DNA from: a virus
Lineage: Duplodnaviria > Heunggongvirae > Uroviricota > Caudoviricetes
IMG/VR virus record: IMGVR_UViG_2548876700_000013
Direction: 5' to 3' (one strand)
DNA length: 5,404 bases
The first letter of the stretch is position 1, and every line of letters begins with the position of its first letter. Positions 1 through 3,000 of the stretch are shown here, one piece after another. Position numbers: made by a program.

Positions 1-3000
1 TTTCCATCTGGTACATACCCCGTCTCCCGTTATCCGGAAGCTGACAACAATAAAAAGCCACCAGTTAATTCCTGATGGCCCTGATGCATAAACGTCATAA
101 TACCTGACTGTTATGATTGACAATAATGATAATGTTTATATAGAAAGGTTCCCGATGTGTGTTACATATCATTTCTCCACGGGGAATATCCCCACGCCAG
201 CGCAGACTCTTTTACCCGTTCTCTTCTGCGCTGGCTCTTTTTTATTATGCTGCTGCATTTACCTCTGGCACCATGCTTTCTATCTCAACACAATACGTGG
301 TACTTCTTGTAACCAATATCATAACGATTAATCGACATAGAATTTCTCCCGTGTACAGGAACAGAGTTAAAAAGCCGGAACCGGAATCAAATCACAGGAT
401 GACCATCTGCCAGTGGCAGGTCATAAAAAAAAGGCCGCGCCATGCGCAGCCAGAACTCACAAGGAAAATGATAGAAGGAAATAACATTAGTGATGTACGC
501 ATGGCGCCTCCCGCTAAGTTCTGCAATGATCAAACAGAACTCGCTACGTGCCCTTAAAACTCGATCATTTAGCCCCTCCAAGGAGGATTCACCATGCGGT
601 TGATTTTTTAATAAACAGTAAACAAAAAAGTCAAGAATTATTCATTCTGTTCTTTCATCATCGGCCACAGCAATACCACAATGCCGCAGACCAGAGCGCC
701 ATCAGTCAGTACCAACATTATCCTGCTGGTGAAATCCATCATCACCATCACTAAAAGCAGGATCACAACAGCAAGCAGACACAGTTTATAAAACAATGTT
801 CAGGAAACGCATTCAGCATGCCTAAGGTTCTATTCCTACGAATAGCCAACTTGCAACTTAAAATATTATTTATGCAGCCAATTAAATTCTGGTCCTTACA
901 ATATCAACCTGAAGATTCTTATCTTGTGCTGATTGATAAATGACAAACCTTTTACTACCTGCATTGAAAGAAGTAGACAAAACCAGACAATTATCATAAC
1001 GAGCAAGAACATAATACCAACCATCATTATAATTAATCATTTCATATTCTTTCTTAAACTGTGGTTTGTAATATCCTGTCAGAAATGAAAAAAGCCAGAA
1101 ATATGCCACAAAAGCAATCATCACAATCTCAAAAAAATGTTTTTTTATAAATGGCTTATCATAGAAGCATGATACCGATAAAAATCGCCCATAAGATCTT
1201 ATCGAAATTGTAACCGCCAGCGCAATCGCTGCTGACAGTAGCAAAAGAGGTACCTGAATCTTCTGTCTCAATATAGAAAACTCAATAATTGCCGGCACAA
1301 ACAATAATTCCACAGCAAAATAAAGGCGAAATACATTTAGCTCTTGCATAGAATGTTTTCTTTTCACTGCGAAAAAGAATACAACACCAATACCCCAACC
1401 GATAAGAAATATAGCAATGACGATAACTGCAAAAAATAAACTTCTGGCAACATCATCAACACCTGCACCTACAATCCACCATGGGAAGCCGTAGTAAAAA
1501 GAAGTACCCCATCCATAGAAATAAGCACTCCCCCATCCAAGGCATCCCATGTAGGCAATAAAAAGTGAAGAACTCCTGAGCAGCGCACCATCCTTCATAA
1601 CCACCCCAATACAAGATGATAACATTGGCTTACAACTCATAACAAAAGCAATTCAATGCCGTCAAGAGGTTACAGGCTAAAAAAACTCTATTACATAGCA
1701 GCCAGCATGTTTACCGTACAAGTACAACTCAGGGCATAAAAAAAAACCCACTCGGCAGCGGGTTTATACATTTTTTACAACATACCAAATTTGCATGAAG
1801 TATATGGCTTTTAATCCAGTTTTGCAATATTTTGCTGTAAAAATGCTGCCTTTTGTTTTGAACGTGTTCTCGTCACAAGCAATAAAGCATCACTATCAAG
1901 CTGTAGAAAAATGTGCTTCATTGCAACCCAGCGTTCAGTAAATGTCTCGGACCAGTTTTTTGTTGTCACTCCCACCAATGATGCCAGTGTCTGGTATTCA
2001 TAGGCCTCACGCCCTGCAAGTTCGCTCTTCACATCCTGTGCAGCCAGCCAGATTAACGTCTTCAGGCGATCCAGTGTCTTACCTGCAATTTTTCTGTTAC
2101 TTAACAAATCTTTAAACTCGCTCCATGCCCATTGCGTTATGGTGACCTGATGCCCCCATCGAACGCTTTCGCTGTAACACCAAAGCAACCATGCTTTCTG
2201 ATGTTCATCGAGAGACAAAACCGCGCGGCGCCATGAAGAGGTTGAGAATTCAACCGGGCTGACCAAAGCAATGGATGAACCTTTTGCGTACGACTGCTTA
2301 CCGGAAGTCGGCGTATTATCCAGCGTAATCATCTTGCCAGTTACCACATCCAGAATGCGCGGCTTCTTTCGTTTGTATGTACCAGTATCAAATTGTGCAT
2401 GCTCCTGCCAGGCTTCGAGCTGGCCTTTCGTTGCTCCGTTCAAGTCAGCAGTAGCTGCCATAAGTTGCTCACGAACATACTGTAAATATTGGGTATTCAT
2501 GCAGTAAATCCTTTCTATATTTTGGCATAATTCTTCAACATTCGGTAATCGTTCAAAACCGAATCGGGGAAACGACATAAGCACAGGAGCCCCCAGCGAC
2601 AGCGAAGGAGTTCTGATATATAAGACTCAGACATCATTCATTCCCCGGTTCTCCAATATCTGTTTCACTCATCATCCATAACTACCTGTAATTGCCCCCC
2701 CTTTTTTTGTAACAGTTCTTATATTGCTATATAGAATAGCCATTACTAATGCATTTAAATTTAATAAAATAAAAATTATAAAAAACATAAAACACCACGC
2801 AAACACACTTAATAAAAACACCGTTACATTAAAAGATAATAAAAACCGCAATAAAAAACGAATAAATCAATTGTCTCACGCAATTATAAAACATCATATT
2901 GATTACGCACCTTGTATTACAAACTCATGTATGTAAAATACGCGCACCATTCAAAAAAAAGGAAGACAATAACATATGAAAAAAAGTGTCATCGCTGGCG

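What the first reader, a model, noticed from the sequence alone, without database searches (positions are those of the whole stretch)
1738..1827. Compact promoter plus terminator unit immediately after the Q-like gene (pR'/qut/tR' analogue with a very short transcript)
A promoter with 5/6 matches in both hexamers and an ideal 17-bp spacer overlaps the last codons of the Q-like gene, and a terminator follows only about 25-45 nt after the predicted start site. This is the layout expected for a Q-controlled late promoter that makes a short terminated RNA unless Q modifies the polymerase. The predicted RNA of about 50 nt is much shorter than the roughly 194-nt lambda 6S RNA. The arrangement independently supports the Q assignment and implies the membrane-protein gene is under late, Q-dependent control.
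Basis: seen in the sequence. Interest (0 to 1): 0.45.

Follow-up and report, generated by a model that had tools for sequence, protein, structure and literature searches.

The report
Phage 82-type late promoter and terminator
This is the late-gene switch of a lambda-like prophage (phage 434 / E. coli O157 prophage Sp3): a constitutive promoter right after the Q gene whose ~53-nt transcript stops at a terminator unless Q lets the polymerase read on. It is a real but ordinary member of the well-studied phage 82 type.

Summary
The feature is real and lies on the minus strand. It has a -35 TTGCAA (1827..1822), a 17-bp spacer, a -10 TATACT (1804..1799) and a start at A1792. The terminator hairpin is at 1765..1744, followed by a T9 run to 1738.

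Pattern alone is not significant: 59 of 200 shuffles give such a pair. The external evidence is decisive:
- The window is 99.8% identical to phage 434, and its Q is 89% identical to phage 82 Q.
- One composite motif (promoter, AAAT start, TGrTAT pause element) occurs once in each of 86 of 107 related loci, always at the same offset from Q.
- Published Cappable-seq in E. coli O157:H7 EDL933 maps a strong start at 899803, in all eight conditions. That base is exactly window 1792.

The leader matches the published phage 82 pR' descriptors except at +16/+17 (GTA, not GCC). Leaders in this family are all short, either ~51-55 or ~70-82 nt, so the brevity is typical.

The downstream membrane-protein gene also has its own constitutive start sites, so it is not purely Q-dependent.

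The 3' end, the pause and Q-dependence were not tested for this allele. Verdict: new member of a known kind, low interest.

The parts
1811..2500 (-). Q antiterminator gene, phage 82 type (229 aa, starting at the ATG at 2500; the ORF is also open back to the GTG at 2584)
   Evidence: Pfam PF06323 at E = 1.7e-91. 89% identical over 229 aa to phage 82 Q. The phage 434 record annotates it as 'Q82-like'.
1822..1827 (-). pR' -35 hexamer TTGCAA (4/6 match to consensus), overlapping the last Q codons
   Evidence: Invariant CTTGCAAAA in alignment A1. 80-90% conserved in 43 distinct family sequences. Identical in the authentic phage 82 record X92588.
1805..1821 (-). 17-bp spacer AACTGGATTAAAAGCCA, the presumed Q-binding element (QBE)
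   Evidence: The phage 82 QBE is described as lying between -35 and -10 (PMC4914094). The first 11 nt are identical to authentic phage 82 DNA. AACTGGATT is conserved in most relatives. Q binding was not tested.
1799..1804 (-). pR' -10 hexamer TATACT (5/6 match)
   Evidence: Relatives have TATAyT at the same spacing.
1792..1792 (-). Transcription start (+1), the first A of AAAT
   Evidence: Cappable-seq start 899803 in EDL933, seen in all 8 conditions, maps to this base (PMC10469882 Table S5). Phage 82 pR' also starts AAA.
1779..1787 (-). Sigma70-dependent pause element: extended -10 TG (+6, +7) plus the -10-like TATGTT (+9..+14)
   Evidence: This is the most conserved non-coding block in the family, TG[A/G]TAT in over 90% of 43 distinct sequences. 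It matches the published description of the 82 pR' pause element. The pause itself is inferred.
1767..1768 (-). Predicted pause positions +25 (U) and +26 (A)
   Evidence: Same register as phage 82, where the pause is at +25/+26 with U at +25 and G at +24. The window has G24, T25 and A26. Inferred, not measured.
1744..1765 (-). tR' terminator hairpin (+28..+49), AAACCCGCU-GCCG-AGUGGGUUU
   Evidence: Terminator scan. Folds at -12.0 kcal/mol. Annotated as a terminator in the phage 434 record. A homologous hairpin starts at +28/+29 in five further lineages.
1738..1746 (-). T9 tract. The first 3 T pair with the AAA at the base of the stem. The expected release region gives an RNA of about 52-55 nt
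   Evidence: The tract length is polymorphic, 7-9 T, among near-identical copies. The 3' end has not been mapped experimentally.
1738..1792 (-). Predicted terminated leader RNA (equivalent to lambda 6S RNA), about 52-55 nt
   Evidence: 5' end shown. 3' end inferred from the terminator.
882..1640 (-). First gene of the late operon downstream of tR': a membrane-protein moron with its own start sites at G1629 and T1609 and a likely start codon at ATG 1598
   Evidence: ORF list. Annotations in phage 434, Sakai and EDL933. EDL933 start sites 899964 (8 of 8 conditions) and 899984 (7 of 8). Promoter-like TTGTTA-18-TATCAT with an upstream TG at 1645..1616.

Best explanation
This is the late promoter pR' of a lambdoid prophage that carries a phage 82-type Q. 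The same element is in phage 434 and in O157:H7 prophages Sp3 (Sakai) and the EDL933 copy at about 0.9 Mb. It comes with its Q-utilisation site and the first late terminator tR'.

Shown:
- Sigma70 RNA polymerase starts constitutively at A1792.

Inferred from phage 82 biochemistry and family-wide conservation:
- Sigma70 region 2 re-binds the -10-like element TGgTATGTT at +6..+14.
- The complex scrunches and pauses at about +25/+26.
- Without Q, the polymerase escapes, transcribes the hairpin at +28..+49 and releases an RNA of about 52-55 nt in the U tract.
- When Q is made from the early rightward operon, it binds the spacer between -35 and -10 and loads onto the paused complex. The polymerase becomes terminator-resistant and reads through tR' and the later terminators at 451..433 and 82..54 into the moron genes and the lysis cassette.
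For: - Identity of the locus: 99.8% identical to phage 434, where the hairpin is annotated as a terminator directly after a 'Q82-like' gene. 99.9% identical to Sakai Sp3.
- Q family: PF06323, 89% identical to phage 82 Q.
- Match to authentic phage 82 DNA: the last 28 nt of record X92588, covering the -35 and 11 nt of spacer, are identical to the window.
- Match to published 82 pR' descriptors: initial AAA, extended -10 plus a -10-like element, G at +15, G24/U25 and no G at +26 (PMC5001585). The QBE lies between -35 and -10 (PMC4914094).
- Conservation: the 26-base composite motif TTGCAA-N17-TATAYT-N6-AAATNTGRTAT occurs exactly once in 86 of 107 loci, always at the same offset from the end of Q. 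Loci missing the strict motif have the same layout with minor variants. Conservation peaks at the -35, the -10, +1 and the pause element.
- Terminator position: a terminator ends at +51..+82 in nearly all distinct leaders.
- Experimental start site: EDL933 Cappable-seq start 899803 equals window 1792. It was seen in all 8 conditions. It is the main start in three exponential-phase conditions, with mean relative read scores of 252-326, against 24-57 for the start upstream of Q.
- Background: constitutive pR' transcription with early termination is documented for phages lambda, 21, phi80, 82, P22 and the Stx phages (PMC7547250).
Against: - No 3' end mapping, pause assay or Q-dependence data exist for this allele.
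- Positions +16/+17 are T and A instead of the CC of phage 82's GCC. In phage 82, changing either base to A roughly halves the pause half-life, so the pause here may be weaker.
- The hexamer pattern alone is not statistically distinguishable from chance.
- I could not retrieve the authentic phage 82 sequence downstream of its Q stop codon. The comparison with phage 82 beyond the spacer therefore rests on published descriptors and on 82-like prophages.
Confidence: 0.9

Rival explanations
1. Coincidence. A chance promoter-like hexamer pair sits next to a terminator that simply ends the early (Q) operon, and there is no dedicated late promoter.
For: Promoter-like sites are no more frequent in the window than in shuffles, 12 against 13.5. 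A promoter-like site followed by a terminator-like site appears in 59 of 200 shuffles. The phage 434 record annotates only the terminator, not a promoter.
Against: A strong primary 5' end maps exactly 7 nt downstream of the -10 in all 8 conditions. The composite motif is conserved at a fixed offset from Q in 86 of 107 loci, with Q identity down to about 60%. Non-coding conservation peaks at the functional elements.
Confidence: 0.02
2. The TTGCAA hexamer belongs mainly to a CII-binding site, TTGC-N6-TTGC on the plus strand at 1822..1835. That site would drive an antisense paQ promoter that dampens Q expression, as annotated in the phage 434 GenBank record. This could coexist with pR'.
For: An exact TTGCAATATTTTGC is on the opposite strand. 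It is annotated as a CII site with a paQ -35 in OL657226. The second TTGC is kept in the E. coli relatives Stx2_14040 and PhiR47_2. A weak antisense start exists at 899756, which is window 1839.
Against: - The degenerate consensus is not enriched: 3 matches against 1.9 expected, and 50 of 200 shuffles reach 3.
- The second repeat lies in Q coding sequence and is not conserved in ENT1, KO-TP1 or Flotzy, whereas TTGCAA is invariant.
- The antisense start lies only 4 nt past the box and appears in 2 of 8 conditions. From my knowledge of lambda pRE, where the start is about 25 nt past the second repeat, this is the wrong geometry for a CII-type promoter.
- CII is not expected in lysogens, so the existing data do not test this idea.
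Confidence: 0.1
3. The terminated RNA of about 53 nt is not just a by-product. It acts in trans as a regulatory small RNA in lysogens, as StxS from Stx-phage pR' does. This would add to the pR'/tR' role, not replace it.
For: The RNA is made constitutively and at a high level in a lysogen. It has an A/U-rich 5' part, a terminator hairpin and a long U tail. The StxS precedent and its authors' suggestion that antiterminated promoters are a source of sRNAs are in PMC7547250. The element is present in about 11% of complete E. coli genomes.
Against: - The Hfq cross-linking table for Sakai lists only EcOnc13 and EcOnc32 for Sp3. Both map more than 1.2 kb away from the leader.
- Leader sequence after about +26 is not conserved between the leader classes.
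- No Rfam family matches here.
- The conserved 5' part is already explained by its DNA-level role as a pause element.
Confidence: 0.08

Closest known systems
Phage 82 late promoter region (82 pR' with QBE, sigma70-dependent pause at +25/+26, first terminator)
   Same: - Same Q family, with Q 89% identical.
- Identical -35 and first 11 nt of spacer.
- 17-bp spacing and an AAA start.
- Extended -10 TG plus a -10-like element at +6..+14.
- G at +15, G24/U25/A26.
- An intrinsic terminator soon after.
   Different: - +16/+17 are T and A instead of C and C, so the GCC 'discriminator' that sustains the phage 82 pause is only partly kept.
- The -10-like hexamer is TATGTT, against TATTTT in 82-like prophages.
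- About 23 nt of leader are missing, so the hairpin starts at +28 rather than about +50 and the RNA is ~53 nt rather than ~78 nt.
- Nothing here has been tested biochemically.
Phage lambda pR'-qut-tR' and 6S RNA
   Same: Same logic and position: a constitutive promoter right after Q, a sigma70-dependent promoter-proximal pause at a -10-like element, a QBE within the promoter, and an early terminator overridden by Q.
   Different: Lambda Q belongs to a different protein family. The lambda pause is at +16/+17 and termination at +193, compared with a predicted pause at +25 and termination at about +53 here. The window also keeps a remnant of a lambda-type Q N-terminus at about 4052..4141, according to the 434 record.
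StxS, the Hfq-binding sRNA made from the terminated pR' transcript of Stx phages (Sy, Lan and Tree 2020)
   Same: A short RNA made constitutively in lysogens from pR' and ended at tR', in prophages of the same EHEC strains.
   Different: StxS is a processed 74-nt Hfq-bound regulator with defined targets. Here no Hfq peak is listed at the leader and no function is known.
Short-leader Q82-type loci in other enterobacteria (phage Flotzy L007; L098 Scandinavium; L100; L089 Superficieibacter; L103 Citrobacter)
   Same: Same architecture, with the hairpin starting at +28/+29 and the U tract ending at about +51..+55. The stem is a homologous AACCCGC...GCGGGTT.
   Different: Their Q proteins are only about 63-69% identical to this one. 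Most keep GCC or GTC at +15-17. Their stems have G-C where the window has a G-U pair.

Membership tests
Phage 82-type Q-dependent late promoter cassette (pR'/QBE/pause element/tR') | A Q gene of the phage 82 family lies immediately upstream | tested here: met
   PF06323 at E = 1.7e-91. 89% identity to phage 82 Q. The Q stop codon is 19 nt before +1.
Phage 82-type Q-dependent late promoter cassette (pR'/QBE/pause element/tR') | A sigma70 promoter directly after Q with a mapped primary start site | tested here: met
   TTGCAA-17-TATACT. Cappable-seq start 899803 in EDL933 equals window 1792, seen in all 8 conditions.
Phage 82-type Q-dependent late promoter cassette (pR'/QBE/pause element/tR') | Initial transcribed AAA, then a -10-like pause-inducing element with an extended -10 about 9 bp further downstream than in lambda | tested here: met
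   AAATTTGGTATGTT: TG at +6/+7 and TATGTT at +9..+14, matching the description in PMC5001585. Conserved in over 90% of family sequences.
Phage 82-type Q-dependent late promoter cassette (pR'/QBE/pause element/tR') | G/C-rich segment GCC at +15..+17 that sets and sustains the +25 pause | tested here: not met
   The window has GTA; only G15 is kept. Most relatives have GCC. In phage 82, +16A or +17A each roughly halves the pause half-life. This is a quantitative sub-feature, not one that defines the family.
Phage 82-type Q-dependent late promoter cassette (pR'/QBE/pause element/tR') | Pyrimidine (U) at the pause position +25, preceded by G24 | tested here: met
   G1769, T1768, A1767, against the description.
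Phage 82-type Q-dependent late promoter cassette (pR'/QBE/pause element/tR') | An actual sigma70-dependent pause at +25/+26 | not testable with these tools
   Needs in vitro transcription or NET-seq.
Phage 82-type Q-dependent late promoter cassette (pR'/QBE/pause element/tR') | A Q-binding element between -35 and -10 | tested here: inconclusive
   The spacer AACTGGATTAAAAGCCA is identical to authentic phage 82 over the 11 nt available and near-identical to 82-like prophages. I could not retrieve the bases that define the QBE, and binding was not tested.
Phage 82-type Q-dependent late promoter cassette (pR'/QBE/pause element/tR') | An intrinsic terminator between the pause site and the late genes | tested here: met
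   Hairpin at +28..+49 folding at -12 kcal/mol, plus T9. Annotated as a terminator in the 434 record. The position is conserved. The 3' end has not been mapped.
Phage 82-type Q-dependent late promoter cassette (pR'/QBE/pause element/tR') | Terminator read-through depends on Q | not testable with these tools
   Needs a reporter assay or in vitro assay with and without Q.
Hfq-dependent trans-acting sRNA derived from a terminated pR' transcript (StxS-like) | Hfq binding and a stable short RNA species in lysogens | tested here: inconclusive
   The Sakai Hfq cross-linking sRNA table lists only EcOnc13 and EcOnc32 for Sp3. Both map elsewhere, to window 491..441 and 161..249. Absence from a curated list is weak evidence.
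CII-activated antisense promoter paQ | TTGC-N6-TTGC repeats flanking a -35 region, with a start site about 25 nt downstream | tested here: inconclusive
   The repeats are present at 1822..1835 on the plus strand. They are not above chance and are not conserved outside the E. coli phages. The only antisense start, at 1839, is 4 nt past the box. CII dependence cannot be tested here.

The most novel reading that the evidence does not exclude
The constitutive leader of about 53 nt is the shortest class of Q-controlled late leaders. Only about 27-30 nt separate the predicted sigma-dependent pause (+25) from the release site, and the pause-sustaining GCC is degraded to GTA. Two readings remain open.

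1. This RNA, abundant in lysogens and present in about 11% of complete E. coli genomes including O157:H7, O145 and O111, could have acquired a trans-regulatory role, as StxS has.
2. The near-abutting pause and terminator could define the minimal distance within which a Q82-type protein must complete loading. That would be a natural test case for how quickly the antitermination complex matures.
Probability: 0.1. Interest if true: 0.45.

Novelty: new member of a known kind. Interest (0 to 1): 0.15.

Why it matters
It fixes the annotation of the late-gene switch in phage 434 and in prophage Sp3 and its EDL933 counterpart. In the GenBank records only the terminator is marked. In the EDL933 start-site atlas the strong start at 899803 is filed as the promoter of a hypothetical gene. 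Knowing that this is pR' tells us which prophage genes lie in the Q-dependent late transcript: a membrane protein, a DUF3927 protein, the EcOnc13 region and the lysis cassette. It also shows that the morons have their own lysogen-active promoters as well. Beyond that it is a textbook mechanism. Its only modest mechanistic interest is the very short pause-to-terminator distance and the altered +16/+17 bases, which could be used to probe how fast Q82-type proteins load.

Tried and rejected
- **Rfam.** A scan of the whole window at E <= 1 found no family at the leader. It gave only an STnc100-like hit and weak Esr41-like, asX2 and SorX hits elsewhere.
- **Authentic phage 82 sequence.** I tried to retrieve the pR' sequence downstream of Q. 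Record X92588 ends at the Q stop codon. A full-text search for sequence strings found nothing relevant. The supplements of PMC4914094, PMC5001585 and PMC7547250 are not held. The comparison with phage 82 beyond the spacer therefore rests on published descriptors.
- **Sequence strings in the EDL933 supplements.** None found. The gene-name search succeeded instead.
- **Covariation in the terminator stem.** The short-class stems are nearly invariant, with one G-U against G-C difference. Covariation is therefore uninformative and I did not build a covariance model.
- **The small 5' hairpin in the MFE fold** (+8..+27). It is weak (A-U and G-U pairs) and is not reproduced in the other short-class leaders, so I rejected it as a feature.
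- **Mini-ORFs in the leader** (ATG-TTG-TAA at +10..+18). No ribosome-binding site, so not pursued.
- **Statistical significance from pattern alone.** Rejected.
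Full report
**What is in the sequence**

The feature lies on the minus strand. Read 5' to 3' it is:

...ATA TTGCAA AACTGGATTAAAAGCCA TATACT TCATGC AAATTTGGTATGTTGTAAAAAATGTAT AAACCCGCTGCCGAGTGGGTTTTTTTTT ATG...

- The -35 hexamer TTGCAA is at 1827..1822. It overlaps the last codons of the upstream gene, whose stop codon TAA is at 1813..1811.
- The spacer is 17 bp.
- The -10 hexamer TATACT is at 1804..1799.
- A hairpin with a 9-bp stem and a GCCG loop is at 1765..1744, followed by a run of T to 1738.
- The hairpin alone folds at -12.0 kcal/mol. 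The 55-nt leader folds at -15.3 kcal/mol, z = -3.1 against shuffles.

One detail is wrong: TTGCAA matches TTGACA at 4 of 6 positions, not 5 of 6, and the scan tool scores the promoter 9/12.

**Is it more than chance?**

Not by pattern alone. The window holds 12 promoter-like sites, against 13.5 +/- 3.5 in shuffles. My own simulation used the same criteria. A promoter-like site followed within 10-60 nt of its predicted start by a terminator-like site turned up at least once in 59 of 200 dinucleotide-preserving shuffles. The case has to rest on outside evidence, and that evidence is strong.

**Identity of the locus**

- The 401-nt stretch around the feature (window 1600-2000) is 99.8% identical to Escherichia phage 434, record OL657226.
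- Window positions 1-3326 are 99.9% identical to prophage Sp3 of E. coli O157:H7 Sakai.
- The 271 nt around the feature are identical to the EDL933 copy at about 0.9 Mb, apart from 7 rather than 9 T in the terminator tail.
- The 401-nt stretch is present at 99% identity or more in 621 of 5,426 complete E. coli genomes.
- The upstream gene (229 aa from the ATG at 2500) is a phage 82-family Q antiterminator: Pfam PF06323 at E = 1.7e-91, and 89% identical to phage 82 Q.
- The 434 record calls the gene 'Q82-like' and annotates the hairpin as a terminator, but annotates no promoter there.

**Comparison with the characterised phage 82 late promoter**

PMC5001585 describes 82 pR' as follows:
- it starts with AAA;
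- it has a -10-like pause-inducing element with an extended -10, placed 9 bp further downstream than in lambda;
- it has GCC at +15-17;
- an A/T-rich stretch follows;
- the pause is at +25/+26, with U at +25 and no G after it;
- a one-base insertion at +18 puts a G at the pause site, which implies G at +24.

PMC4914094 places the Q-binding element between -35 and -10.

With +1 at 1792 the window reads A1 A2 A3, T6 G7 (extended -10), TATGTT at +9..+14, G15 T16 A17, AAAAATG, T25, A26. Every descriptor is met except C16 and C17.

The authentic phage 82 record X92588 stops at the Q stop codon. Its last 28 nt, which include the -35 and 11 nt of spacer, are identical to the window.

**Family-wide conservation**

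I collected 100 further Q82-family loci from viral contigs and from one genome per species. Q identity to the window ranges from 100% down to 59%, across Escherichia, Shigella, Citrobacter, Klebsiella, Raoultella, Enterobacter, Leclercia, Franconibacter and others. Five annotated phages were added.

- The 26-base composite motif TTGCAA-N17-TATAYT-N6-AAATNTGRTAT occurs exactly once in 86 of 107 loci, always at the same offset from the end of Q.
- The loci that miss the strict pattern have the same layout with small hexamer variants.
- Across 43 distinct sequences, conservation peaks at the -35, the -10, the AAAT start and, most strongly, the TG[A/G]TAT pause element.
- Homology between the window and 82-like prophages ends at about +15. 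This fits a Q-plus-qut cassette that is inherited as a unit.

**Leader length in context**

Nearly every distinct leader has a terminator whose U tract ends between +51 and +82. There are two classes.

- The long class has its hairpin at about +47..+76 and gives an RNA of about 70-82 nt. It includes the prophages whose Q 3' ends are identical to authentic phage 82.
- The short class has its hairpin starting at +28/+29 and gives an RNA of about 51-55 nt. It contains this window, phage 434, phage Flotzy, and loci from Scandinavium, Superficieibacter, Citrobacter and an unnamed Enterobacteriaceae genome. Their Q proteins are only about 63-69% identical to this one.

The 'very short transcript' is therefore normal for this Q family, and the shortest form is an established variant, not a recent deletion.

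**Experimental confirmation of the start site**

A published Cappable-seq atlas of E. coli O157:H7 EDL933 (PMC10469882) lists in its Table S5 a start site at 899803 on the plus strand, present in all eight growth conditions. It is assigned to the hypothetical gene after 'Q antiterminator encoded by prophage CP-933P'.

In NZ_CP008957.1 the Q gene ends at 899784. Position 899803 is the first A of AAATTTGG. The alignment puts it at window 1792.

In Table S7, 899803 is the main start site for that gene in exponential LB, acid and salt conditions, with mean relative read scores of 293, 252 and 326. The start just upstream of Q scores 24-57 in the same table, and the main dnaK start scores 30-254. 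A strong, constitutive start in a lysogen is what is expected of pR' (PMC7547250).

**What remains inferred**

The 3' end of the short RNA, the sigma-dependent pause and the Q-dependence of read-through have not been measured for this allele. In phage 82, changing +16 or +17 to A roughly halves the pause half-life. The window has T16 and A17, so its pause may be shorter-lived. The -10-like element with its extended TG is intact.

**The downstream gene**

- By position that is right. No other terminator lies between tR' and the gene. The late operon continues through a DUF3927 gene, the EcOnc13 region and its terminator (451..433) to the holin gene at the window's left edge.
- However, EDL933 data show two further start sites: 899964 (window G1629, all 8 conditions) and 899984 (window T1609, 7 of 8 conditions).
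- The second is served by the TTGTTA-18-TATCAT site, which has an upstream TG, found.
- 899964 is the main start for this gene in five conditions, with scores of 164-287.
- Both lie just upstream of the ATG at 1598, which has a GGGGTGG ribosome-binding site and is the start used in the annotation of that paper.

The gene is therefore a typical moron. It is expressed on its own in lysogens and is presumably also swept into the late transcript.

**Rivals**

- **Pure coincidence** is excluded by the start-site mapping and the conservation.
- **CII site / paQ.** The 434 record annotates the same palindromic TTGCAA, read on the other strand, as part of a CII site (TTGCAATATTTTGC, 1822..1835) with a paQ -35. 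The degenerate consensus is not enriched in the window: 3 matches against 1.9 expected. The second repeat lies in coding sequence and is lost in the more distant relatives, while TTGCAA stays invariant. The only antisense start in EDL933 (899756, window 1839, 2 of 8 conditions) is 4 nt past the box, which is not CII-promoter geometry. This reading can neither be confirmed nor excluded, and it would coexist with pR'.
- **Trans-acting role for the leader RNA,** as for StxS. This has no support. The Sakai Hfq cross-linking table lists only EcOnc13 and EcOnc32 for Sp3, and both map elsewhere in the window.

**Verdict**

The finding is correct and is now supported by published experimental data. 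It describes an ordinary member of a thoroughly studied class. It is not annotated as pR' in the records I saw, and I found no paper describing this allele. I therefore rate it 'new member of a known kind', with low interest.

Noticed in passing
window 422..627 (-) and 156..249 (+): This is a convergent pair of Hfq-bound prophage sRNAs. The Sakai Sp3 peak EcOnc13 (~187 nt on Northern) maps to 491..441 (-). That lies inside a full-length but sub-threshold Rfam STnc100 hit (37.7 bits against a gathering score of 47) which ends at the terminator 451..433. EcOnc32 (~112 nt) maps to 161..249 (+), on a weak Esr41-like Rfam hit. A promoter-like CTGACT-18-GATAAT at 104..133 (+) precedes EcOnc32.
   Followed up: partly
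window 1598..1645 (-): The membrane-protein moron has its own lysogen-active start sites, G1629 and T1609 (EDL933 899964 and 899984). Its real start codon is probably the ATG at 1598, preceded by GGGGTGG, and not 1640 or 1625 as in the ORF list and the current RefSeq and phage 434 annotations.
   Followed up: partly
window 2512 (-), with TGcCAAAAT at 2527..2519: A start site 12 nt upstream of the Q start codon (EDL933 899083) is detected in all 8 conditions in a lysogen, with read scores of 24-57. It is served by an extended -10-like TGcCAAAAT inside the ylcG-like ORF. If it is translated, some Q would be made without prophage induction. The consequence for tR' read-through is unknown.
   Followed up: no
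window 2700..2975 and 2976..3935 (+): An lpxR (lipid A 3'-O-deacylase, PF09982) moron lies on the opposite strand from the phage genes, behind a very A/T-rich 270-bp upstream region. Its own start site is seen in all 8 conditions at EDL933 898650, about window 2946, with a TAAAAT -10 at 2934..2939.
   Followed up: partly
window ~4052..4141 (-): According to the phage 434 record, a 29-codon remnant of the N-terminus of a lambda-type Q follows the ninI-like phosphatase gene (4147..4812). The lpxR + ylcG + Q82-type module therefore appears to have replaced a lambda-type Q and its qut by recombination.
   Followed up: no
window 1738..1746 (-): The terminator T tract is polymorphic in length among otherwise identical copies: 9 T here, 8 in phage 434, 7 in EDL933 and Sakai, and 7-9 across the viral contigs. 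This may modulate basal read-through.
   Followed up: partly
window 1839 (+): A weak antisense start site inside the 3' end of Q (EDL933 899756, in 2 of 8 conditions) lies 4 nt past the TTGC-N6-TTGC box that the phage 434 record annotates as a CII site/paQ.
   Followed up: partly
L056, L077, L078, L084 (viral contigs), leader region after +26: One subgroup of Q82-type loci keeps the promoter and pause element but has a different leader (…GTTGTATGTGCAACTGTTCG…). My criteria found no terminator within about 140 nt of its start, so it may be a third, longer leader class.
   Followed up: no
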